Shown one piece after another: positions 8,875 to 29,688 of a stretch of 64,000 nt of DNA. The notes beneath the pieces are model-generated. The model was not told where the DNA came from. It saw only the letters and a list, made by a program, of their open reading frames with translations, and did no database searches. The number at the start of each line of letters is the position of its first letter. The first letter of the stretch is position 1. The translations under genes and the position numbers were made by a program. The stretch lies in IMG/VR virus record IMGVR_UViG_3300023055_000005. The stretch is one strand, 5' to 3'. Source of the stretch: a virus. Taxonomy: Duplodnaviria; Caudoviricetes.

Positions 8875-11106
8875 ATGTCACGTTCACGTTCCCGCCTTCC
8901 CGTCGATCCGGAGTTTGTCGACAAAGGCTATTTTGTCCGTGGGTTGCCCGAGCGCATCCCGGATCGCTACATCCCCAATATCCAAATCCCCGGCGCCATC
9001 GAGCGCGACCTGCCGTTGATCGCAGGCGTCGTACTGCAGGAACTGCAGGCCGACTACGGTCGTCATGAGCTGCGTACGTTCCTGTACAACATGATGGCCG
9101 AGAACGAATTCGACAACAAGGACTACGACCAGCTCGTCGGTTCTGTCGCCGAAGCGTTCTTCTTCTTCTTCGAAGGCGAGCGCATGGAAGCCCCCGATGC
9201 GCTGCGCAAGGCAACCCAGGTGGTGCTGCGCTTCACCATGGCGCTGTACGTGGAGAAGTATCCCGAGCTGGACGAGTACGTCGACGGCAAGATGGATCGC
9301 GAACTGCGTGATGCCATGGACGACGGTCGTGACCTCATCGCTGACATCGAAGACTTCAACCGTGGTTCGCGCCGTGGTCGTGGTCGCGATGACCGTGATG
9401 ACCGCGGTCGTGGTCGTGGCGACGATCGTGACGATCGCCGTGGTGGTCGTAGTCGTGGTCGCGAAGATGGTGGTTACCGTGGTAATGGTAGCCGTGGTTA
9501 CGGTGGCAGCCGTCGTCGTGATGAAGAAGACGACACCGATGCAACGGCAACTCGCCGTGGCGGCATGGCTGGTGTGGTGCGTGCGTCGAGCAAGGACAAT
9601 CGCGATGACCGCCCCAGTCGTGATGAGCGTAGCAGCCGTCGTGACACCCCGCGTGAAGACCGCAGCCGCGAGTTCTCCTCCGGTGGCGTGGAAGAACGTG
9701 GTGGCAACGATCTGCATGCCGTGGAAGAAGAACTGCATGCCAGCCCGCGTGGCCACAACTACCAGAACCACGAAGCACAGCGCAAGGCCGATGCAACTCC
9801 GTCGCGCCCGATGCCGAAGCTGTTTGATCGCAGCAAGGGCACCGTGGTCTCGGCCGATACCGTCGACAAGGACGCAACCCTGCGTGCCAACATCCGTGCC
9901 GGCCGTCCCTACGACCGCGTGGACCTGGAAGACGGTTCCTTCGTCATCCCGGAAGTGCTGAGCACCTACAAGAAGACCTTCAGCCCGGAGCAGCCGTTCG
10001 CTCTGGTGTACGATCCCAACCTCTTCGTCAAGTTCCACCGGGTCTATCCCGATGGTCGTGTCGATGAAGTTGTCAAAGAGCGAAATGCCGACATGGACTA
10101 CCTGGACCTGGAAACCGACGAGAACCGCAAGAGCAAGGCGCAGCATCAGCGTCGCCAGGGTCGTGTCGACCCGCGCTTCGACCTGGTCGCCAACATGCAC
10201 AAGAAGGGCGAAAAGATGGTCGGCGTCGAGCTGGCCGCACCGAGTGGCGAAGTGACCGAAGGCAGCGAAGAAAGCACCTTCGACAACCTGGTCTTCGGTC
10301 CGGACACCGAGATCGGCGAAGTGGCTACCACCGTGCCGGCAATGTCGGTGGCTCAGGCCATTGCCATGACCGAAGTGGTGGCAGTTGAAGATGAAGGTGA
10401 AGACACTCCCAAGGAGTTCTACATCGACATCCTCACCCCGCACCTGGTGGAAGCCAACCTGATCGGTACGTTCCTGGCCATCGGCAAGGAAAAGACCGTG
10501 CAGGCTGCACTGGCCAAGTTCAGCCAGCTGCAGGGCCAGGAAGATGTGCCGGTCCGTCTGTGGCATCAGCTCAACGATGCGCTGACCGCTCGCATCAACT
10601 ACGTGCTGAAGAACTCGATGGGGCTGAGCTGGACCATCGATACCGCTGCTGACGACTTCGGCGATCTGCTGAAGGCGATGCAGGCCAAGGCAAGTGTGGG
10701 CGTGGCTGCTGCCAACCTGCTGAACTCCAAGGTCGACGAGGTGTTCAACTCGGTCATGCGTGTTCTGAAGGACGAAGAGCTGGCTCGCTTCGCTGAAGAG
10801 TACGGCAAGGCTGGTGCAGGCATGCATTGGCTGGTCTTCGCTCGTCGCCAGTCGGTGACGCTGCTGAGCTGGTCCAGTGCTGACATGGGTCCGTCGCTGG
10901 TCAACGGTGGCGTGGTGTCCGAACAGCTGTACCCGGCACTGCACGCTTCGCTGGATCGTCTGCTGCAGCGCACGGCGATCGTGGGTGGTGAGTTCTGCCA
11001 TCGCTACCTGGTCACCGAAGACAACGTGGCGTTCGATCTGCAGGTCGGCTTCTTCAACAACAGCCATTACGTGCTGACGCCGTCCAAGGTTGACATCATG
11101 GGCTAA
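8875..11106 (+). CDS. Large conserved hypothetical protein with RGG/RD low-complexity insert
   Basis: 743 aa, GGAG RBS, strong codon bias, R/G/D-rich tract at about 9355-9720. Confidence 0.85.
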   Translation: MSRSRSRLPVDPEFVDKGYFVRGLPERIPDRYIPNIQIPGAIERDLPLIAGVVLQELQADYGRHELRTFLYNMMAENEFDNKDYDQLVGSVAEAFFFFFEGERMEAPDALRKATQVVLRFTMALYVEKYPELDEYVDGKMDRELRDAMDDGRDLIADIEDFNRGSRRGRGRDDRDDRGRGRGDDRDDRRGGRSRGREDGGYRGNGSRGYGGSRRRDEEDDTDATATRRGGMAGVVRASSKDNRDDRPSRDERSSRRDTPREDRSREFSSGGVEERGGNDLHAVEEELHASPRGHNYQNHEAQRKADATPSRPMPKLFDRSKGTVVSADTVDKDATLRANIRAGRPYDRVDLEDGSFVIPEVLSTYKKTFSPEQPFALVYDPNLFVKFHRVYPDGRVDEVVKERNADMDYLDLETDENRKSKAQHQRRQGRVDPRFDLVANMHKKGEKMVGVELAAPSGEVTEGSEESTFDNLVFGPDTEIGEVATTVPAMSVAQAIAMTEVVAVEDEGEDTPKEFYIDILTPHLVEANLIGTFLAIGKEKTVQAALAKFSQLQGQEDVPVRLWHQLNDALTARINYVLKNSMGLSWTIDTAADDFGDLLKAMQAKASVGVAAANLLNSKVDEVFNSVMRVLKDEELARFAEEYGKAGAGMHWLVFARRQSVTLLSWSSADMGPSLVNGGVVSEQLYPALHASLDRLLQRTAIVGGEFCHRYLVTEDNVAFDLQVGFFNNSHYVLTPSKVDIMG

Positions 11107-11387: not shown

Positions 11388-12398
11388 GTGAATACCCCGA
11401 TGTTTTCCCTCGAAGACGATACCAACACCGTCTACGACCGCACTCCCGTGATGGCAACCATTGGTTCCCGTCTGGCCAGTTTCAACGATCGGATGGAATA
11501 CCGCAATCTGGAAACCCGTCTGGTCGTCAGCCACGAAGCAGCGCAGGAGCATGTGCCTGCTGACTTCGTTGCAATCGAATTCGAACAGTTCCCCACTGAG
11601 GATGAGACCTTCTCCATCCGGCAGGAACTGATCATGTCCGGCCTGTACATGCGTGCCCATCTCGATCCGGGTAAGCAGACCATCGAATCTACCCAGATCA
11701 CCGTCGGCATGTTGGAGGTCATGTGGACTCCTCTGTATGACAACCTGGTCGAGATCATCGAACGTATCAAGCAGCCCCTGCGGGTTCGCCGCTTCACCAT
11801 CACCAAGACCGACGAACTTGGCGAGACCACCGCTTCCTTCTTCATGTCCGCCTACAGCGTACCGCGGGCAAATCAGGACATGGTCCTTGACGAAATCGGC
11901 CTGCCGATGCGCGTCAAGCTCAACGAAGCGCTGGCCTCTGACGGATTCAACTACGCACTGGCCTACTCCAAGACGGTTGGTGAGCGTGTCTACGTGTTCA
12001 TCGAGGAAACCGATCCGGGTGCCGGTAAGGAACTGAGTACGGTTATCCTGAGCACCGATGACTACAACGACATCATCGCCAGAGCAGAAAGCGATCCGTT
12101 GATGCTCCCGGCGGCCAATCAGCTGCACATGCGTACGGAACTGTTGACGAAGATCATCGACAAGCATGTCCGCAAATTGCAGTACACCCTCGGTGGGCCG
12201 AGTGAGTATCCGGATATGTCCTACGACTCCTTCACCGGCCTGCAAATGGAACTGGAGCACAACGGCTTCATCGCCGCCGCCGCCAAGCTGCACTCCATGG
12301 GGGGTGTCGATAAGGTCATTCGTGGCAGTCAGGTTTCGCACCTGTACGTCATGCTGACCATGGCTGACTATGCCGACGAGCATAGCGCCATTCTCTAA
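11388..12398 (+). CDS. Hypothetical protein (possible virion protein)
   Basis: ORF 11250..12398; GGAG at 11378-11381 precedes an in-frame GTG at 11388. Confidence 0.7.
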   Translation: MNTPMFSLEDDTNTVYDRTPVMATIGSRLASFNDRMEYRNLETRLVVSHEAAQEHVPADFVAIEFEQFPTEDETFSIRQELIMSGLYMRAHLDPGKQTIESTQITVGMLEVMWTPLYDNLVEIIERIKQPLRVRRFTITKTDELGETTASFFMSAYSVPRANQDMVLDEIGLPMRVKLNEALASDGFNYALAYSKTVGERVYVFIEETDPGAGKELSTVILSTDDYNDIIARAESDPLMLPAANQLHMRTELLTKIIDKHVRKLQYTLGGPSEYPDMSYDSFTGLQMELEHNGFIAAAAKLHSMGGVDKVIRGSQVSHLYVMLTMADYADEHSAIL

Positions 12399-12433
12399 GA
12401 ACACAAGTCTCGCCTGGTGACATAGGCGCTTTT

Positions 12434-12521
12434 GCCCACTCCTATCCGGGGGGTGGGCACTTTTTTGCCGTCTCTTTTTTTTTGTCTTCGCGGCATAAAG
12501 GGAGGCCCCGAAGGGCCTCCC
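12434..12521. terminator. Pair of terminators between convergent genes
   Basis: TGCCCACTCC-TATCC-GGGGGTGGGCA plus T-tract for the + gene; CGGCATAAA-GGGAGGCCC-CGAA-GGGCCTCCC for the portal gene; T9 tract between them. Confidence 0.75.
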
Positions 12522-12529
12522 AGTTCCTA

Positions 12530-15500
12530 TTACGGCTTTGCCTGTTCCATCGTGACAACCTTGACGGGCAGACGATGTGCACCATCGGCGTTTGCACGAG
12601 ACAGACGCTTCAGACCATCGAGGATGACCACACGTCCATCTTCCTCACGCACGCCAATCAGCGGGTAGCTGTAGTCGGCACGGGAGACCAGACGCGGAGA
12701 CATCGAGCCAGCCTGATGGAGATTGAAGCGCAAGTCCTTCACTTCAATCAGCTCCGGTTCGAGGGCGTGTGCCGAACGCAGCAGCGGGTTGAGCGGACGA
12801 CTCACAGCATCGTAGAAGTAGACGCGATCATCGGCTTCCTGATAGAGATCAGCGATGGATTCAGTGGAAGCTTCTTCGCCACCTTCCTCCGTCGCCTCAG
12901 CTGCACCAGCATCAGCAGCAGCGTCTTCTTCACCAGTGTCCTCCTGCTCTTCCTCCTGCTGCTCGTCTTCCTGACCCTCTTCAGCGCCTTCATCGGCACC
13001 TTCGTCAGCGCCAGTATCCGTATCAGTACCCAGACCATCGTCCTGAGGCATGCCGGTGTCGTCAGCCGGCGGAGCACCGCCGTCATCCGGAGGCGTTTCA
13101 TCCTGAGGTTCGCGCTTCTCCACCAGCTTCTGGATACGGTCGATGTACTTGCCGAAGACCTTGTACAGCACCTTCATGTGCTCGGCAGCGGACTCGAAGA
13201 TGTTCACCTTGCCCTCTTCGTTCTCGTCCAGCTCCATCAGCTCGAACAGCTCGGGCATGATGTTGTTGGTACGCAGGAACTGACGCAGGTAGAAGGCAGT
13301 GGTCACAGCGACCAGTCCATCAACTGCAGTGGAGATGTCGGTCTGAGAGTCACCACCAGCATCGAACATTTCCTTGCTGATGTAGGCCGGCAGAACTTCA
13401 GCCAGCGCTTCCTTGTACTCCTTGTACGCCTCGACCTGAACCTTGATCTTGGTCGTGTCCGGAGAAGGCAGTTCGCAGATGACAGCGTCGATGAACAGCT
13501 TGACCACGTTGTCGACGTTCAGTTCCTGTCCATGGGAATGGATGTACTGACGGACTTCATCGCCCAGCTTGCCCTTGTTCTCGATGATGATCTTGCGCAG
13601 ACGGTCCAGCAGGGTGCCTGAGTTGTAGGTGTACTTCTGCACGAAGTCAGTGACATGCGGGCAGAACTGTTCCTGCGTCTTCAGCACGCGCTTGGTCAGC
13701 AGCAGGTTGTTGGTCACCGCCGTGGTCGCAAACTCCGGACCCTGGGCGTTGTCCACCATCTCCACCGGGATACCCAGCGACAGCGAGTGGTTCTTGCGCA
13801 GCAGGTTGTCCAGATCCAGATCCGGCTTGTTGACCTGTGCACCGAAGTCCTCGGCGTTGACTTCCGTGTTGGGGTAGCCATCGTTACCACTGACCACCAC
13901 TTCCACACCTGCGTTCTGCAAGAAGGAGATGATGTCCAGCGGGTTGGAGGCGCCCAGCGGGTAAGCCTGCTGACGGTTCTTGGAGAACTCGCCGATGATG
14001 AACTCGACGGTATCCACCGGATCGTCGTCACGCTCATCGAGCTTGATGTTCAGCTTCGTACGACCCACCGAGTTACGCAGCGAACCCATCGTGTTGGCAA
14101 ACATCAAGATTGCACGCATGCCAGCGAGGATCTTGGTGTCTTCCAGCAGCGAACGACCGATGCCGAACTTGTTGTAGTCGATGGCGAAGTAGGTCACCAT
14201 TTCAGCCGGGACGTACACCAGACGCGTGTCCTGGTTGGCCAGGGTACGAGCCAGCATGATCCGGAAGACTTCTTCCGGGCGAGCGATGGTCACGTTGTCA
14301 CCGCATGCACCGGCACGCAGACGAGCCAGCATGGTTTGTTCGACCATGTCCGAGTAGGCACGCTGGAGCGACTCACCGTCGATCTCGTTGTTGCCCTTCA
14401 TGCCGAACGTGCCACGATGCGTCGACTGGATCAGCTGACTGATCATGTCGTTGTTCGCATTCACGTTCTGGTTGAGCTGGTTGAAGTAGTCGTCCTGGGT
14501 GGACTTGTTGACCAGGTGACCCCGTTCATCGCAGACCAGGAAGTAGCCGAGATGATCGGAGGGATCGGACGGTACGAATACCGGGATCACAGCTTCCGAC
14601 GGCGCCTCGATGACCAGCGGGTGACCCTTGGTCTTGGTCTTCAGCTGGTCACGGGTATACAGGGTCTGCACCGGCATCGAAGCGTAACGACGCTGGCTGT
14701 ACAGAGCCGACTGCACCTCCATCAAGGTGGGCTTGCCATCGGTGCCGATGGACTCGGTGGCCACCGCTACCTTGGGCAGATTCAGCAGACCCTTGCGGTT
14801 GTTGCGACGCTTGAGGATGGCATCGCTGCGATGATGAATTGCCGCCTGTGCAAGCGCGGGCATCTTCAGCATCTCCGGGTTGTCGGTAATGAGCAACTTA
14901 CCGGTCTTTTCAGATGCAGCACCGTTGAACGGCTTGAAGACCGGATCGTAGTTCTTCGGACTTGCCGAGGCCTCCATACTGAAGGACTCCATGGCAAAGC
15001 CCACGCCAGCGGCCGTAGAACCACTCTTGGGAGCGTCGGCGCTCGTACCGGCAGGTTGGCCCAGCCAACCCAGCGAGTGCTGTCCTGCGCCTTCCACGGA
15101 CGCCTTGACGGACTCCATGGACGCACGCGTCGGATTGTTGATGACGTCGTCGATCGTGGATTCAGACAGGATGATCATCGGGCGCGAACCACGGTGATAC
15201 AGGATGTCTTCCAGCAATGTCGGAAGTCGGCTGTCAATCTTATAGACTTGCGTGAAGTGGGTAGAAACCACGTCCAACAACATGCCGGAAAGCTCGCTGT
15301 CGAAGATGCCCTCCTGCACACGGTAATTCAGTTTCGAGTTGATCATGTCCTTCGGGGACAGGATCGAGCTGACCATGATCTGCATGTTCAAACGCAGATC
15401 CGGCAACAGCTGCATCAGGTTGGCGGAATCGGTGACGTTGGTCGCCGTATTGTCGCTGAGCTTGGTGAAGAACTGATCACCCGGCAGGTTCACTTCGCGA

Positions 15501-15655
15501 CGACGGAACAGTCCACCGGTCTGGACTTCCCGGTTGGCGTAAACCAACTTGGAGACCACCGAGCCGAGTTGCGGACTCTTCTTCAGAGTCTCAATCTTCG
15601 GCATAGCCTTTCGGCGATCGCTGTCCTTCGGGAAGACGGGCGGCAGGTTGTTCAT
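12530..15655 (-). CDS. Portal protein (phiKZ gp129-like) with acidic linker and C-terminal ParB/Srx-like domain
   Basis: 1041 aa, GGAG RBS. Segments GHPLVIEAPSEAVIPVFVPSDPSDHLGYFLVCDERG, IDYNKFGIGRSLLED and ILMFANTMGSLRNS; N-terminal SMES/AMES/ATES sites; divergent from a large structural gene. Confidence 0.75.
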   Translation of the reverse strand: MNNLPPVFPKDSDRRKAMPKIETLKKSPQLGSVVSKLVYANREVQTGGLFRRREVNLPGDQFFTKLSDNTATNVTDSANLMQLLPDLRLNMQIMVSSILSPKDMINSKLNYRVQEGIFDSELSGMLLDVVSTHFTQVYKIDSRLPTLLEDILYHRGSRPMIILSESTIDDVINNPTRASMESVKASVEGAGQHSLGWLGQPAGTSADAPKSGSTAAGVGFAMESFSMEASASPKNYDPVFKPFNGAASEKTGKLLITDNPEMLKMPALAQAAIHHRSDAILKRRNNRKGLLNLPKVAVATESIGTDGKPTLMEVQSALYSQRRYASMPVQTLYTRDQLKTKTKGHPLVIEAPSEAVIPVFVPSDPSDHLGYFLVCDERGHLVNKSTQDDYFNQLNQNVNANNDMISQLIQSTHRGTFGMKGNNEIDGESLQRAYSDMVEQTMLARLRAGACGDNVTIARPEEVFRIMLARTLANQDTRLVYVPAEMVTYFAIDYNKFGIGRSLLEDTKILAGMRAILMFANTMGSLRNSVGRTKLNIKLDERDDDPVDTVEFIIGEFSKNRQQAYPLGASNPLDIISFLQNAGVEVVVSGNDGYPNTEVNAEDFGAQVNKPDLDLDNLLRKNHSLSLGIPVEMVDNAQGPEFATTAVTNNLLLTKRVLKTQEQFCPHVTDFVQKYTYNSGTLLDRLRKIIIENKGKLGDEVRQYIHSHGQELNVDNVVKLFIDAVICELPSPDTTKIKVQVEAYKEYKEALAEVLPAYISKEMFDAGGDSQTDISTAVDGLVAVTTAFYLRQFLRTNNIMPELFELMELDENEEGKVNIFESAAEHMKVLYKVFGKYIDRIQKLVEKREPQDETPPDDGGAPPADDTGMPQDDGLGTDTDTGADEGADEGAEEGQEDEQQEEEQEDTGEEDAAADAGAAEATEEGGEEASTESIADLYQEADDRVYFYDAVSRPLNPLLRSAHALEPELIEVKDLRFNLHQAGSMSPRLVSRADYSYPLIGVREEDGRVVILDGLKRLSRANADGAHRLPVKVVTMEQAKP

Positions 15656-26315: not shown

Positions 26316-27518
26316 TTACGATGCGATGGCGTCGGTGATGATCTCAATCACCTTGGCGCGGCCGGTCTTGCGGGTCAGGGTCAGCTTGGTCTTGATCTGA
26401 CCGCGGTAGATCGACATGTTCGTCCCGTTGACAGTCGTATTGGTGACCCGCATGCCGGGGAACAGCGCTTGGTTGCTGCTGTCGGTCCGGAACTTGTAGG
26501 TGGTCTTACCCGACCCGGAGTTGCTCAGGTTGCCGATGACGACGCCGGTATCCTTGTTGACCAGACGCAGGCGCGTGGCATCGGTGGGCAGGTATTCGAC
26601 CCGGCACGTAACCTTCTTCTCGCCCGAGCCATTCGGGAACGCCGTCGTGACCTCCAGTTCGACATCGTAACCCTCCAGGATATCCTGGAACTTGTTCTGC
26701 TCGGCGGTCAGCTGGAAGCCGAAGGCAACCTGCCAGCTTCGAGCATAACCGAAGTTACTGTGCGAACCGGTGGCGGTACTGATCGGGTAGACGCCATCTG
26801 CATTCGGGTCAACGCCAGTGCCGCCGGTGGTATCCCAGCCACCCCTGGTATTGAAGGCACGCACGAACGCCACCACCTCGCCGTTCTTGGCGAAGTTGAA
26901 ACCCTTGCGGTTGTCGGCGATGCCGCTCGAAACAATGGCCGCAAAATGACCATCCGGAGCCAGGGCATTGCGTTCGAAGATGATGTTGTTCAGGGACGGC
27001 GTGTTGGCGTTCGGATAACCGAAGCCATCCAGATCCGACTTGGTCAGGCGGTCGCTCAGCGGGGAGCGGGTCAGGTCCAGGAACAACGCCACCTGGCCGA
27101 TGTAGCCCAGCGAGTTGGGCACCGCCTTCAGGACGAACTCACCGGGGATATTGTCGGCCGACGGAGCCGGGGAGATTTCCATCTCCAGGTTGGAAAGACG
27201 CGTGTCGTACTCGGCATTGATGCGCGAGATGATGTCTTCCTTGGAGGCGCCCTTGGGCACTGCCAGCTCGACCCCGCCACCGAAGTAGCGATTCAGGTCG
27301 CGGCGATGGTAGTCGACCTTGACGCTCTTGTTCCAGGGGGCATCCGGATCGGCGATGACTTCGGTACGAGTGTTGGCGTCGCTGCCTTCGATCGGTTCGG
27401 CCAGACTGTTGGGCAGGCCGAAGTCGATCTGCTCGCGCTCGATCGTACTTTCGTTTTCACTGTTGATCAGATTCAGCAACAACTTGTCGCTGGTCTGAGG
27501 CTGTTCATTTTCGCTCAT
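26316..27518 (-). CDS. Tail tip/adhesin paralog 7
   Basis: SDKLLLNLINSEN…TRSPLSDRLTKSDLDGFGYP; GGAG RBS. Confidence 0.8.
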   Translation of the reverse strand: MSENEQPQTSDKLLLNLINSENESTIEREQIDFGLPNSLAEPIEGSDANTRTEVIADPDAPWNKSVKVDYHRRDLNRYFGGGVELAVPKGASKEDIISRINAEYDTRLSNLEMEISPAPSADNIPGEFVLKAVPNSLGYIGQVALFLDLTRSPLSDRLTKSDLDGFGYPNANTPSLNNIIFERNALAPDGHFAAIVSSGIADNRKGFNFAKNGEVVAFVRAFNTRGGWDTTGGTGVDPNADGVYPISTATGSHSNFGYARSWQVAFGFQLTAEQNKFQDILEGYDVELEVTTAFPNGSGEKKVTCRVEYLPTDATRLRLVNKDTGVVIGNLSNSGSGKTTYKFRTDSSNQALFPGMRVTNTTVNGTNMSIYRGQIKTKLTLTRKTGRAKVIEIITDAIAS

Positions 27519-27567
27519 TTGAACGACTCCATTAGTGGGCTGAGTGGATTGATCGTATCCCTCCTAG

Positions 27568-27613
27568 GACATAGGATTGGTCTTTATAAAACGACGCCAC
27601 CCAATCTTATGGC
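27568..27613. promoter_or_regulatory. Divergent putative late-promoter pair (TATG on each strand) in an inverted repeat
   Basis: CATAGGATTGG (27570-27580) and CCAATCTTATG (27601-27611) lie between divergent genes. Confidence 0.45.
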
Positions 27614-27669
27614 TACCACGAAAACATCAACTCATTGATGCTTTCTTTTCCCCTTAACGGAGTCCTTGC

Positions 27670-28752
27670 ATGCATAGCCAGCCTCCCTTCCCACGCGGTG
27701 GCAATCAGCCCCCTGGGAACTTTCCGGATCAAGACAGTTGGAGCGCGGCCCCGCCGGTACATGGACGTCGGCCTCCTGCACATGGTCACCACGATCCGCA
27801 CAATCATGGCCACTCGCACCCGCGCCCTGATCACCGGCACTACGAGCATTTCCCGCATCAGCATCGCCACCCTGAAGCGTGGCAGTGCCCCGAGCCGATC
27901 TTCCCGTACAACAAACCGGGCAAGCATGTCCTGATTGATCTGATCAACCGGGCCAACGAAACCGACTTCTCTCCTGATCAGCTTGAACTGAGTGCACCGG
28001 CCGCACTTGGCAACACGCTGACCCAGGTGCACATCACCCCGACGCAGAAGACCGGGTGGTGCAGCAGCGATACCTTCACCTACCATCGCATGTTGATGGA
28101 GGCGTATCTGGGCAAGACCCACATCAACCTGCATGTGGACGCCCGGATGACCAAGGAAAGCGTCGCCCAAGCCATGCGTGATCGTTACCGCATCTGGCTG
28201 GACATGGAAGACTTCGACGTGGACTTCTCCAACTGCCCGCCGAGTTGGCTGCAGCGTGGTCATTTCCTCGCGCGCCTGCGCTTCCGTCCGAACTGCCTGG
28301 TGTGGATCGGTGCAATGGAAGTGGTCCTGATCCCGGACAATCGTCTCAGTGCGATGATCTGCGTCACCGATCTTTCCGGCTTCATCTATCCAGACCATCT
28401 CGGTGGACAGGGTCGCAAGCAACTGGCCGAGTCGTACTACCAGGATTTGGAAGGCACCATCCTCTTCCAAAACCTGTTGAAGTATCGTGTCGGTGAACCG
28501 GTGCGTACCCACGACGGCAAGTGGCGCGATGGCACGCGACTGACTGGCGACTTCTGGATCTCTTCCCCGCAGGAAGTTGAGTTCAATGTCTCCGGCGCTC
28601 GCATCCTGTACAACGGTCGCAATGATGGTCCGTGGCACTGCGGCTGTGATGACTACAGCCATGTACTGGTGATCGAGCTTGGCCCGCTGTGCAAGAACCT
28701 GCGCGGCAAGCTGGTCATCCCCTACGACGTGCGTCGTGAGAAGCCTTACTAA
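27670..28752 (+). CDS. Tail paralog 8 with His/Pro-rich N-terminal extension
   Basis: YNKPGKHVLIDLINRAN…LSAMICVTDLSGFIYP module preceded by a region with 15 His in 67 aa; GGAG RBS. Confidence 0.75.
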   Translation: MHSQPPFPRGGNQPPGNFPDQDSWSAAPPVHGRRPPAHGHHDPHNHGHSHPRPDHRHYEHFPHQHRHPEAWQCPEPIFPYNKPGKHVLIDLINRANETDFSPDQLELSAPAALGNTLTQVHITPTQKTGWCSSDTFTYHRMLMEAYLGKTHINLHVDARMTKESVAQAMRDRYRIWLDMEDFDVDFSNCPPSWLQRGHFLARLRFRPNCLVWIGAMEVVLIPDNRLSAMICVTDLSGFIYPDHLGGQGRKQLAESYYQDLEGTILFQNLLKYRVGEPVRTHDGKWRDGTRLTGDFWISSPQEVEFNVSGARILYNGRNDGPWHCGCDDYSHVLVIELGPLCKNLRGKLVIPYDVRREKPY

Positions 28753-28827
28753 GCCTCTGTAGAGAATTACCTCTAGCACGCTATCGTATAGCGCGACTTA
28801 CGTCAAAACGAACAAAGGTATTCCCAC

Positions 28828-29688
28828 GTGAAAATCATTACCCGTACTGGCTACGGCTGCCTGCGTCAGACCGAGCTGCTGATCGGCAAGCCCTACAAGG
28901 CGCTGCCCAACAGCACACTCAACGAGAAGTTCGAAGTACAGGCCAACGTGGTCCCCGAAGCTGGCAAGATACCCTACCTTGGCTACTACAGCATCGGTCA
29001 GGGTGGTCACCGCAACGAGACCGGCGCCGATGGCTTCCCGCTGACCAGCCCGATCGACCATCGTCCCACCGACGCTGGCCTGTTCCGCTTCCTGCCGTTC
29101 GTCTTGCGTGAGCTGACCAACGACCTGGACAGCGGCGCCCGCAGTCGCTATGCGATGCGCAAGATCATCCAGGTGGATGGCCGCAACTACGTGGCGTACT
29201 ACCTGAAGAAGATCCCGATGGACTCGGTGTCCCCGGACATCTACTACAACCGTGTGGTCGATGGTCAGGTCACCACGACCCCGTTCCGTCCGGACAACAG
29301 CAACCTCAACCCGACCCCGCCGGAGATCCCCAACACCGGCACCGTCACCACCTCGGGCGACTACCTGTCCGTGTCGGCGATCCTGCCGCTGGACTTCACC
29401 GCCAACGACGTGGCCGAGCTGGTCAACGCGATCCGCATCCTGTACAAGGACGAGCGTTACGCGGTGATCTCGGAAATCGCCATGGTCACTGCATCGGCCA
29501 AGGTTGTCACCGGTCCGGGTCCGGGTAACACCACGATCCAGTACGAAGAAGCAGTGGCTGCACAGATCGCCGCCCACATGACCGGCCACTACCCGGTGGG
29601 CTTCACCAACATGGGCTTCAACCTGAAGGTGAACCTGGGCGCGACCGAGCCGATGTTCAAGCCGTCGGCTGTTACCACCGGTAACTAA
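28828..29688 (+). CDS. Virion structural protein (phiKZ gp139-like, baseplate region)
   Basis: GTG start; TRTGYG…PNSTLNEKF…YYSIGQGGH…LFRFLPFVLRELTNDL…NYVAYYLKKI…YAVISEIAMVTA. Confidence 0.7.
   Translation: MKIITRTGYGCLRQTELLIGKPYKALPNSTLNEKFEVQANVVPEAGKIPYLGYYSIGQGGHRNETGADGFPLTSPIDHRPTDAGLFRFLPFVLRELTNDLDSGARSRYAMRKIIQVDGRNYVAYYLKKIPMDSVSPDIYYNRVVDGQVTTTPFRPDNSNLNPTPPEIPNTGTVTTSGDYLSVSAILPLDFTANDVAELVNAIRILYKDERYAVISEIAMVTASAKVVTGPGPGNTTIQYEEAVAAQIAAHMTGHYPVGFTNMGFNLKVNLGATEPMFKPSAVTTGN

What the first reader, a model, noticed from the sequence alone, without database searches (positions are those of the whole stretch)
12530..13110. Portal protein ends in a ParB/Srx-like domain behind an acidic linker with a head-protease site
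Seen: after the portal body comes an ~80 aa D/E/G/P/A linker ending …EEASTE|SIADL, then a 109 aa domain (12530-12859) with DYSYPLIGVREEDGRVVILDGLKRLSRANADG…LPVKVV. This matches the ParB/sulfiredoxin N-domain pattern (YPI…DGxHR…G…VPV) but has K in place of the usual H. No in-frame start with an RBS separates it from the portal. Known: the phiKZ head protease cuts after S/A/G-x-E. Inference: the portal may carry a nucleotide- or DNA-binding cargo that is released by proteolysis, or a sensor for docking proheads onto the phage nucleus or DNA during packaging. I do not recall such a fusion in phiKZ portals.
Basis: partly seen in the sequence, partly recalled or inferred. Interest (0 to 1): 0.75.

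Follow-up and report, generated by a model that had tools for sequence, protein, structure and literature searches.

The report
Giant-phage portal carrying ParB-like domain
The portal protein of this giant Xanthomonas-type phage really does end in a small ParB/sulfiredoxin-like domain on a long acidic tether. The domain would sit inside the phage head, and it belongs to a family that phages repeatedly build into head-packaged proteins, so the portal probably serves as a carrier for an internal cargo.

Summary
Window 12530-15655 (-) is one 1041-aa ORF, a phiKZ gp129-type portal (PDB 9xpe, E 1e-121). It has an 87-aa acidic low-complexity tail (aa 846-932, net charge -34) followed by a 109-aa folded domain (aa 933-1041).

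The fusion is real. It occurs in four 82-100% identical portal clusters, including isolate Xoo-sp14. The linker carries in-frame indels, domain dN/dS is 0.14-0.22, and contigs from four runs are identical.

New context:
- The acidic tail is ancestral. All 120 portal homologues sampled have one, and only this clade has a folded domain after it.
- The domain family (phrog_17560) is also fused to a virion-RNA-polymerase subunit (Ralstonia RP12-like phages), to MuF, and to an unrelated portal. It is also part of an MS-detected PA5oct virion protein.
- The same genome holds a canonical free-standing copy.
- The portal copy alone has lost two family-invariant residues (H to K, R to L).

Portal C-termini face the capsid interior. 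An internal, possibly protease-released cargo is therefore plausible, and a nucleus-docking sensor is not. Cleavage and biochemical activity remain untested.

The parts
12530..15655 (-). Portal gene, 1041 aa plus stop. A GGAG-type ribosome-binding site lies just upstream of the ATG at 15655.
   Evidence: ORF list and translation. phrog_3004 over aa 15-931, E 1e-213. phiKZ gp129 structure 9xpe_M E 1.3e-121 and Goslar portal gp36 E 1e-102.
14753..15655 (-). N-terminal region aa 1-301. Likely a propeptide, ending at the conserved VAVATE|SIG.
   Evidence: Long N-terminal portal propeptides are removed in SPN3US (ATE-161, AQE-254), phiKZ and 201phi2-1. ATES is invariant in the four orthologues. Cleavage here is inferred.
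14750..14761 (-). A-T-E|S, aa 299-302, the candidate N-terminal maturation site.
   Evidence: It has the same context as the verified SPN3US gp81 site KPSVATE|SL.
13121..14752 (-). Portal body (wing, stem, clip and crown), aa 302-845.
   Evidence: Aligned to phiKZ gp129 residues 222 to about 800. dN/dS 0.13-0.23. The crown region is modelled as helices.
12860..13120 (-). Acidic low-complexity tail/linker, aa 846-932 (87 aa, net -34), predicted to be disordered.
   Evidence: Composition. In-frame length variation between orthologues. pLDDT below 50 with no secondary structure. Equivalent acidic tails of 43-329 aa occur in all 120 portal homologues sampled.
12857..12868 (-). S-T-E|S, aa 930-933, the candidate head-protease site at the linker/domain junction.
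   Evidence: EEASTESI is invariant in four orthologues while the flanking linker varies. TESI occurs only twice in the whole predicted proteome, both times in this protein. TES[IL] is enriched 4-fold in portal homologues, clustering at the N-propeptide and near tail ends. Cleavage is not shown.
12533..12859 (-). ParB/Srx-fold domain, aa 933-1041 (109 aa, 12.3 kDa, pI 6.3), a member of phrog_17560.
   Evidence: phrog_17560 E 7.6e-10. Family profile versus SbnI E 2e-6. AF2 pLDDT 89.6. Fold searches. dN/dS 0.14-0.22.
12605..12619 (-). D-G-L-K-R, the family's DGxHR motif with Lys in place of the invariant His.
   Evidence: His is present in 44 of 44 other family members. K is conserved in all four portal-fused orthologues.
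12500..12521 (.). GC-rich hairpin just downstream of the portal stop, between the convergent genes. Likely a terminator.
   Evidence: Terminator scan. Sequence read.

Best explanation
This is the portal protein of a Xoo-sp14-like, phiKZ-type (Chimalliviridae) giant phage. Like all portals of this type it ends in a disordered acidic tail that leaves the crown on the capsid-interior side. In this one lineage a 109-aa ParB/Srx-fold domain has been added to the end of that tail. The domain belongs to a phage family (phrog_17560) that is usually a free 110-125-aa protein. That family has repeatedly been built into proteins that travel in the head: a virion RNA polymerase subunit, MuF proteins, and an unrelated portal. 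The portal therefore works as a carrier. Every virion is built with 12 copies of the domain inside the head, next to the inner mouth of the DNA channel. The most likely sequel is that the prohead protease, which cuts after Glu in S/A-x-E contexts, chops the acidic linker and cuts at the invariant STE|SI junction. This would free a 12-kDa protein that stays in the head and can leave with the DNA, in the manner of polyvalent-protein effector domains. The portal copy has replaced two residues that are invariant in all other family members, and it sits on a very long branch while still under purifying selection. It probably no longer performs the family's ancestral reaction and instead acts as a binding module or has changed ligand specificity. 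Shown: gene structure, fold, family membership, lineage restriction, selection, and the other head-associated fusions. Inferred: interior location (by homology to solved portals), cleavage, ejection, and altered activity.
For: Portal identity. [quoted passage not shown] The tail is ancestral and the domain is clade-specific: 120 homologues, with the domain only in P0050-P0053. The fusion is real: Xoo-sp14 annotates a single 1044-aa CDS. Four clusters come from ENA, JGI, Logan and GenBank. Linker indels are in frame. dN/dS is 0.14-0.22. Contigs of four runs show 0 differences and 0 gaps over 12300-13700. ParB/Srx fold. The family is head-associated. RP12 ORF042 is an RNAP subunit (phrog_2986) plus the domain at aa 557-658, and its homologues are annotated as virion-associated RNAP; vRNAP subunits are head ejection proteins in SPN3US. 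PA5oct gp343 is annotated 'structural protein, ESI-MS/MS'. Metagenomic fusions occur to MuF, to Phage_portal_3+InPase+GNAT, to MuF+T7-like RNAP beside a DUF4055 portal gene, to GNAT and to a cell-wall hydrolase. This matches the polyvalent-protein pattern of PMC5512222. Protease site: the junction is invariant. TESI occurs only twice in the proteome, both in the portal. The SPN3US verified site is VATE|SL. TES[IL] occurs 27 times against 6.4 expected in portal homologues, clustered in the N-propeptide and near tail ends. Divergence: H91K, R64L, W52F and Y28R against 44/44, 44/44, 43/44 and 41/44 in the family. The stem branch is 2.55 against a median tip of 0.9. A canonical free paralogue exists in the same genome.
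Against: No proteomic or structural data exist for this phage, so cleavage, retention in the head and ejection are all untested. Known portal processing in SPN3US, phiKZ and 201phi2-1 is N-terminal; no C-terminal portal processing is mentioned in the papers read. S/A/G-x-E is expected many times by chance in an acidic tract, and the TESI argument is post hoc. The SPN3US protease prefers Ala at P3, whereas the junction has Ser. Lys in place of His keeps a basic residue, as Arg does at the aligned position of canonical ParB GERR, and Arg63 sits next to the lost Arg64. Activity may therefore be retained rather than lost. The domain is near-neutral (net -1), which gives no hint of DNA binding.
Confidence: 0.5

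Rival explanations
1. The domain stays covalently tethered. Twelve copies on 87-aa acidic leashes act at the inner mouth of the portal, for example to hold or sense the DNA end, to anchor the inner body or ejection proteins during assembly, or to gate the channel. They are never released.
For: The C-terminus faces the capsid interior. The SPN3US authors suggest that portal extensions may anchor ejection or core proteins. Loss of two invariant residues fits a structural or binding role. No C-terminal portal cleavage is documented in relatives.
Against: The linker is full of protease-type sites, and the junction motif is invariant and matches a verified site in a homologous system. The domain is near-neutral and lacks any HTH or other DNA-binding module. 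Other family members sit on proteins that are ejected, such as vRNAP.
Confidence: 0.28
2. The tail plus domain is a C-terminal propeptide that is needed only during prohead assembly, for example for portal ring nucleation or recruitment of a core component. It is then cut off, degraded and expelled before DNA packaging.
For: Giant-phage propeptides are long, are cut at several sites and are cleared from the head. The linker has many candidate sites, and one (ALE, aa 964-966) lies inside the domain.
Against: Relatives of the domain are found in mature virions: PA5oct gp343 by MS, and vRNAP fusions. A compact 12-kDa fold is a poor protease substrate. The closest portals assemble without it.
Confidence: 0.12
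3. One reading: the domain is a sensor that docks proheads onto the phage nucleus or onto DNA at the start of packaging.
For: ParB/Srx folds bind nucleotides, and some act on DNA.
Against: Docking and terminase binding use the clip side of the portal, outside the shell, whereas the C-terminal crown and tail are inside. There is no DNA-binding domain and no positive charge. Only one small clade has the domain, while all Chimalliviridae must dock.
Confidence: 0.04
4. The fusion is an artefact: an assembly error, or a frameshift or lost stop codon joining two genes.
For: A free-standing version of the domain exists in other phages and in this genome.
Against: The same single ORF occurs in isolate Xoo-sp14 and in three further independent assemblies, with in-frame linker indels. 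Selection on the domain is purifying. Contigs are identical in four runs. No start codon or RBS precedes the domain.
Confidence: 0.01

Closest known systems
phiKZ portal gp129 (PDB 9xpe) and Goslar portal gp36
   Same: Homologous over the propeptide region, wing, stem, clip and crown (E 1e-121 and 1e-102). Both have a long N-terminal region and an acidic disordered C-terminal tail. phiKZ even ends ...EDESTE|SDEIG.
   Different: phiKZ and Goslar, and all 116 other sampled clusters, stop at the acidic tail. Only the Xoo-sp14 clade continues into a folded 109-aa domain.
Polyvalent proteins of phages: effector domains fused to MuF or portal domains and packaged in the head (Iyer et al. 2017, PMC5512222)
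   Same: A head-assembly protein is used as the carrier for an extra enzymatic-type domain. The same domain family is found in textbook polyvalent architectures: MuF + domain + RNAP, and portal + InPase + GNAT + domain.
   Different: Here there is only one added domain, on a T4/phiKZ-type portal of a nucleus-forming giant phage. It is joined through the portal's own acidic tail. No autoprotease domain is present, and release would depend on the prohead protease.
DdrB-like ParB domain of phage P1 (head-packaged ParB/Srx domain; Pfam PF18763)
   Same: A ParB/Srx-superfamily domain that is incorporated into a phage head and encoded among late or structural genes.
   Different: None of 45 family members matched PF18763 at E<=1. 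This family has its own N-terminal YQE...STFTH hairpin and a DGxHR motif. DdrB is a separate large protein, not part of the portal.
SbnI / SerK free serine kinases (ParB/Srx fold, ATP-dependent)
   Different: SbnI and SerK have an extra C-terminal domain and a metabolic role. The phage family is a single domain. The portal copy has K for H and lacks the family's invariant Arg64.
Canonical ParB/Noc/KorB CTPase N-domains
   Different: No GERRxR box, no HTH or dimerisation domains, no ParA partner, and no Pfam ParB_N hit for the window copy. A 2025 survey of ParB-CTPase fusions does not mention portal or capsid fusions.

Membership tests
phiKZ-type (gp129) portal protein | Full-length homology to solved phiKZ and Goslar portals | tested here: met
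   9xpe_M E 1.3e-121 over aa 62-933. Goslar gp36 E 1e-102. phrog_3004 E 1e-213.
phiKZ-type (gp129) portal protein | Acidic low-complexity C-terminal tail after the crown | tested here: met
   aa 846-932, net -34. Tails are present in all 120 homologues.
phiKZ-type (gp129) portal protein | Long N-terminal propeptide removed by the prohead protease after A/S-x-E | not testable with these tools
   The motif VATE|SI at aa 298-303 is conserved and resembles the verified SPN3US VATE|SL. Cleavage needs proteomics.
ParB/Srx superfamily (fold level) | [quoted passage not shown] | tested here: met
ParB/Srx superfamily (fold level) | Conserved Arg in the active-site pocket (end of the Gly-x-x-Arg / DGxHR motif) | tested here: met
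   R1017 (R92 of P0002) is invariant in the family and retained.
ParB/Srx superfamily (fold level) | Nucleotide (ATP/CTP/GTP) binding or nuclease activity | not testable with these tools
   Needs biochemistry. Only fold and motif evidence is available.
phrog_17560 family (small phage ParB/Srx proteins, e.g. EL gp75) | HMM match over the whole domain | tested here: met
   E 7.6e-10, profile positions 15-108 of 119. 47 homologues at E<=1e-3 among 1.8 billion representatives. A1 profile 98.5 bits.
phrog_17560 family (small phage ParB/Srx proteins, e.g. EL gp75) | Family-invariant residues Y13, E15, R64, P73, D88, G89, H91, R92 (P0002 numbering) | tested here: not met
   Y13, E15, P73, D88, G89 and R92 are kept. 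R64 is Leu and H91 is Lys, against 44/44 in the other members. W52 is Phe and Y28 is Arg. It is therefore a divergent member by descent, not a typical one.
Canonical ParB CTPase (chromosome/plasmid partition) | GERRxR box, HTH DNA-binding domain, ParA partner | tested here: not met
   No Pfam ParB_N or HTH hit. The motif is DGLKR. The domain ends the protein after 109 aa.
DdrB-like ParB domain (PF18763) | Match to the Pfam model | tested here: inconclusive
   No match at E<=1 in any of 45 family members. No profile-profile comparison was possible.
Polyvalent proteins (Iyer et al. 2017) | Effector-type domain(s) fused in one polypeptide to a head-incorporation domain (MuF or portal) | tested here: met
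   Portal + ParB/Srx domain in one ORF. Relatives of the domain occur in multi-domain MuF and portal proteins.
Polyvalent proteins (Iyer et al. 2017) | [quoted passage not shown] | not testable with these tools
   Needs virion proteomics and infection assays.

The most novel reading that the evidence does not exclude
In one lineage of nucleus-forming giant phages the portal itself has become the loading device for an injected or head-internal factor. Twelve copies of a retooled ParB/Srx pseudo-enzyme are built in through the portal's acidic tail and cut loose by the prohead protease at a dedicated STE|SI site. They then act on the incoming genome or on the first host-cell events alongside the virion RNA polymerase, the protein to which the same domain is fused in Ralstonia phages. 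This would be the first portal-borne cargo described for Chimalliviridae. It would also be a natural handle for loading foreign proteins into giant-phage heads.
Probability: 0.3. Interest if true: 0.72.

Novelty: new variant of a known kind. Interest (0 to 1): 0.58.

Why it matters
How giant phiKZ-like phages select and load the many proteins that travel inside their heads is largely unknown. Here one small domain family is attached, in different lineages, to two different head-resident proteins: the portal tail and a virion RNA polymerase subunit. In unrelated phages the same family is attached to MuF and to other portals. This marks the family as a head-delivered module and gives a defined, testable case: 12 copies, a known position and a candidate release site. 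It also shows that the acidic portal tail can accept a folded passenger, which is useful for engineering cargo into giant-phage capsids. In addition, it extends the recently surveyed ParB-fold fusion repertoire to portal proteins. The divergent portal copy and the canonical free copy in one genome form a natural pair for asking what the family's invariant His and Arg do.

Tried and rejected
- Pfam, NCBIfam and PADLOC scans of the window domain alone gave nothing usable. Only family-level profiles reached ParB/Srx.
- A single-sequence PDB search gave only E 1.6 to SbnI.
- The search for related loci with the family alignment failed because no stretch was conserved enough, so viral-contig contexts were not surveyed systematically.
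- Complex prediction of the portal domain with the genome's free paralogue (idea: the tethered copy recruits the free copy into the head) returned 'no answer', score 0.00. This is no evidence either way.
- The family tree is poorly resolved (30 of 50 forks open), so the donor of the portal domain could not be identified. It is not a recent copy of the in-genome paralogue, with which it shares only 22% identity.
- I looked for a major-capsid-protein cleavage site to calibrate the protease motif but could not assign one from sequence.
- I looked for folded domains in other unusually long portal tails (up to 329 aa) and found only low-complexity sequence.
- A literature search for EL gp75 in virion proteomes found nothing.
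- The RNA-library contigs span more than 200 kb of the genome, so they say nothing about transcription.
- The apparent alignment of phiKZ's terminal ESTES with this portal's ASTES lies in low-complexity sequence and was not used as evidence of homology.
Full report
**What is in the sequence**

Window 12530-15655 on the minus strand is one open reading frame of 1041 aa, preceded by a GGAG-type ribosome-binding site and followed by a GC-rich hairpin.
- Residues 15-931 match phrog_3004 at E 1e-213.
- The whole protein matches the solved phiKZ portal gp129 (PDB 9xpe_M, E 1.3e-121) and the Goslar portal gp36 (E 1e-102). The gene is therefore the portal.
- Residues 846-932 form an 87-aa tract made almost entirely of E, D, G, A, T, P and Q (36 acidic residues, net charge -34) that ends EEASTE.
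- Residues 933-1041 (window 12533-12859) form a 109-aa, 12.3-kDa, near-neutral segment beginning SIADLYQE and containing DGLKR.

**Is the fusion real?**

The closest cultured relative, Xanthomonas phage Xoo-sp14 (88% identical portal), is annotated with a single 1044-aa CDS of the same architecture. A search of 5.8 billion proteins found four portal clusters with the domain: one identical, and three at 82-87% identity from ENA, Logan and JGI assemblies, one of them on a 230-kb contig.

Between these clusters the linker differs by in-frame insertions and deletions. The domain and the junction EEASTESI are conserved. The dN/dS of the domain is 0.14-0.22 in three pairwise comparisons, similar to the rest of the portal.

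Logan contigs of one DNA run and three RNA-library runs cover 12300-13700 with no differences and no gaps. These runs may share an origin with the window. No start codon precedes the domain. An artefact or a broken two-gene arrangement is effectively excluded.

**What the domain is**

Pfam does not recognise the domain, but it matches phrog_17560 (E 7.6e-10). An exhaustive search of 1.8 billion representatives found 47 relatives, mostly free-standing proteins of 110-125 aa. Their alignment gives a clear signature: YQE..STFTH.G..Y.LN.LL, then L.W.L, RV..AD.S.PILV, and VV.DG.HRL.KA..G...P.K.

Evidence for a ParB/Srx fold:
- A profile of this alignment hits the ParB/Srx-fold serine kinase SbnI at E 2e-6. 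Next come ParB (0.076) and sulfiredoxin (0.84).
- With the alignment, AlphaFold2 gives a confident model (pLDDT 89.6, pTM 0.80).
- All 50 best Foldseek matches in the PDB are ParB/Srx proteins: sulfiredoxin, SbnI, SerK, Noc, ParB, KorB, PadC and Atu1540.
- AlphaFold DB clusters named 'ParB/Sulfiredoxin domain-containing protein' match at E 2.5e-7, TM up to 0.74.
- In the viral structure library the best matches are the C-terminus of a Ralstonia phage RP31 RNA polymerase subunit (TM 0.84, rmsd 1.3 Å) and phage EL gp75.

**The acidic 'linker' is the ancestral portal tail**

I examined 120 portal homologue clusters. Every tail that could be delimited (118 of 120) is low-complexity and mostly acidic, 43-329 aa long, and follows the last crown helices. 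Only the four Xoo-sp14-type clusters continue into a folded domain.
- The nearest portals without the domain (49-52% identity, 920-937 aa) simply end in the tail.
- phiKZ gp129 ends ...EDESTESDEIG.
- A model of aa 700-1041 shows a helical crown, then no structure and pLDDT below 50 through the tail.

[quoted passage not shown] By homology, the tail and the added domain point into the head.

**The family travels with head proteins**

Within giant phages the domain occurs in several settings:
- As a free gene in Pseudomonas phage EL (gp75) and in Erwinia and Pseudomonas phages, where some annotators call it ParB.
- As the C-terminal 100 aa of an RNA polymerase subunit in the Ralstonia phages RP12, RP31 and FLC (phrog_2986 plus the domain at aa 557-658).
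- As the C-terminal half of PA5oct gp343, which is annotated 'structural protein, ESI-MS/MS'.

Homologues of the Ralstonia RNA polymerase subunit are annotated as virion-associated RNA polymerase in several records. In SPN3US, vRNAP subunits are head ejection proteins.

In metagenomic phages the domain is fused to:
- MuF;
- MuF plus a T7-like RNA polymerase, next to a DUF4055 portal gene;
- an unrelated Phage_portal_3 portal together with an inorganic pyrophosphatase and a GNAT;
- GNAT alone;
- a cell-wall hydrolase;
- a second ParB-like domain.

This is the pattern described for 'polyvalent proteins', in which effector domains ride on MuF or portal domains into the capsid and then into the host. 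That class already includes a different ParB/Srx family, the DdrB-like ParB of phage P1 (PMC5512222). A 2025 survey of ParB-fold fusions does not mention portal or capsid fusions (PMC12704722). The Xoo-sp14 genome note does not mention the portal.

**The portal copy is a divergent member, and the genome also has a canonical one**

The 234-kb genome holds a second, free-standing copy at 27442-27786 (120 aa). It has every family signature (STFT, W, R, DGLHR) and lies next to an enlarged thymidylate synthase gene.

The portal copy keeps Y13, E15, P73, D88, G89 and R92. It replaces R64 with Leu and H91 with Lys, and both positions are invariant in all 44 other aligned members. It also replaces W52 with Phe (W in 43 of 44) and Y28 with Arg (Y in 41 of 44). 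All four portal orthologues share these changes.

In a family tree the portal clade sits on a stem of 2.55 substitutions per site, against a median tip length of 0.9. Its internal branches are 0-0.08. The domain therefore changed greatly around the time of fusion and has been conserved since.

This suggests an altered function, but two caveats apply. Lys keeps a basic side chain where canonical ParB has Arg. Arg63 also adjoins the lost Arg64.

**Is there a protease site?**

Homologous prohead proteases cut after Glu: A-x-E in SPN3US, and related motifs in phiKZ and 201phi2-1. They remove long N-terminal portal propeptides. A bare S/A/G-x-E match means little here, because the linker has 12 such matches through composition alone.

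More telling evidence:
- The junction EEASTE|SI is invariant while the linker around it varies.
- The tetrapeptide TESI occurs only twice in the whole predicted proteome (0.66 expected). Both occurrences are in the portal: at this junction, and at VAVATE|SIG (aa 296-304) at the end of the N-terminal region.
- The experimentally verified SPN3US portal site is KPSVATE|SL.
- Across 120 portal homologues TES[IL] occurs 27 times against 6.4 expected. The occurrences cluster at residues 180-300 and 12-40 residues before the C-terminal ends of the tails.

These observations are post hoc, but together they make cleavage at the junction plausible. No C-terminal portal processing has been reported in the papers I could read, and there is no proteomic evidence for this phage.

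**Most likely mechanism**

The portal carries twelve copies of a retooled ParB/Srx domain into the head interior. The prohead protease probably fragments the acidic tail and frees the domain, which would then be a small internal protein able to leave with the DNA.

I put about 0.5 on this cargo-and-release reading. I put about 0.28 on the domain staying tethered and acting at the inner portal mouth, about 0.12 on an assembly-only propeptide, and very little on a nucleus-docking sensor or an artefact.

The biochemical activity is unknown. The fold predicts nucleotide binding, and the nearest solved relative uses ATP.

**Novelty**

The parts are known kinds: a phiKZ-type portal, a ParB/Srx fold, and head-carried effector domains. 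The combination is new: a ParB/Srx domain on the acidic tail of a Chimalliviridae portal, paralogous to a free copy in the same genome, with the same family fused to the virion RNA polymerase in another lineage. I did not find this combination described. I rate it a new variant of a known kind, of moderate to good interest to phage structural biologists.

Noticed in passing
Own genome G000:C1:27442-27786 (outside the window; locus L004:1489-1851): A free-standing canonical member of the same ParB/Srx family (120 aa, DGLHR, all family-invariant residues). Xoo-sp14 annotates its orthologue as 'putative chromosome partitioning protein'.
   Followed up: partly
L004:1861-3084 (genome about 27800-29000): A thymidylate-synthase-family gene of 407 aa (PF00303, E 1.5e-99, matched in two stretches), so it carries a large insertion relative to the 266-position model. 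It lies directly downstream of the free ParB/Srx gene.
   Followed up: no
Portal homologues P0078, P0082, P0090, P0096, P0097 (C-termini): One clade of phiKZ-type portals ends its acidic tail with a short conserved hydrophobic motif (T-Y-V-Y or S-Y-I-Y, followed by basic residues). In most of them a K-T-E-S-[IL] motif precedes it. This may be a trimmed or docking peptide.
   Followed up: no
L003:4330-6324 (Ralstonia phage RP12 ORF042) and RP31/FLC relatives: A virion-type RNA polymerase subunit (phrog_2986) carries the same ParB/Srx domain at its C-terminus (aa 557-658). Homologues in other phiKZ-like phages lack it.
   Followed up: partly
L012:6001-10878 (protein P0013, 1625 aa, metagenomic phage): A polyvalent portal: Phage_portal_3 + inorganic pyrophosphatase + GNAT + the same ParB/Srx family domain, plus about 690 aa with no family match. 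This is an independent portal fusion of the same family.
   Followed up: partly
window 12433-12459 and 12500-12521: Two terminator-like hairpins lie back to back between the convergent 382-aa gene and the portal gene. The 22-nt GC hairpin recurs once more in the genome, at about 60330.
   Followed up: partly
window 12300-13700 in runs X4, X9, X16: Soil 'metatranscriptomic' libraries contain contigs of 76-234 kb that are identical to this phage. The libraries therefore appear to carry phage DNA or an exceptionally abundant phage. The phage recurs in 24 runs of 2018-2019.
   Followed up: no
window 8875-11106 (+), aa about 160-270: A 743-aa ORF upstream of the portal region has a long Arg/Gly/Asp/Ser-rich low-complexity insert. 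The first-stage reader also noted this.
   Followed up: no
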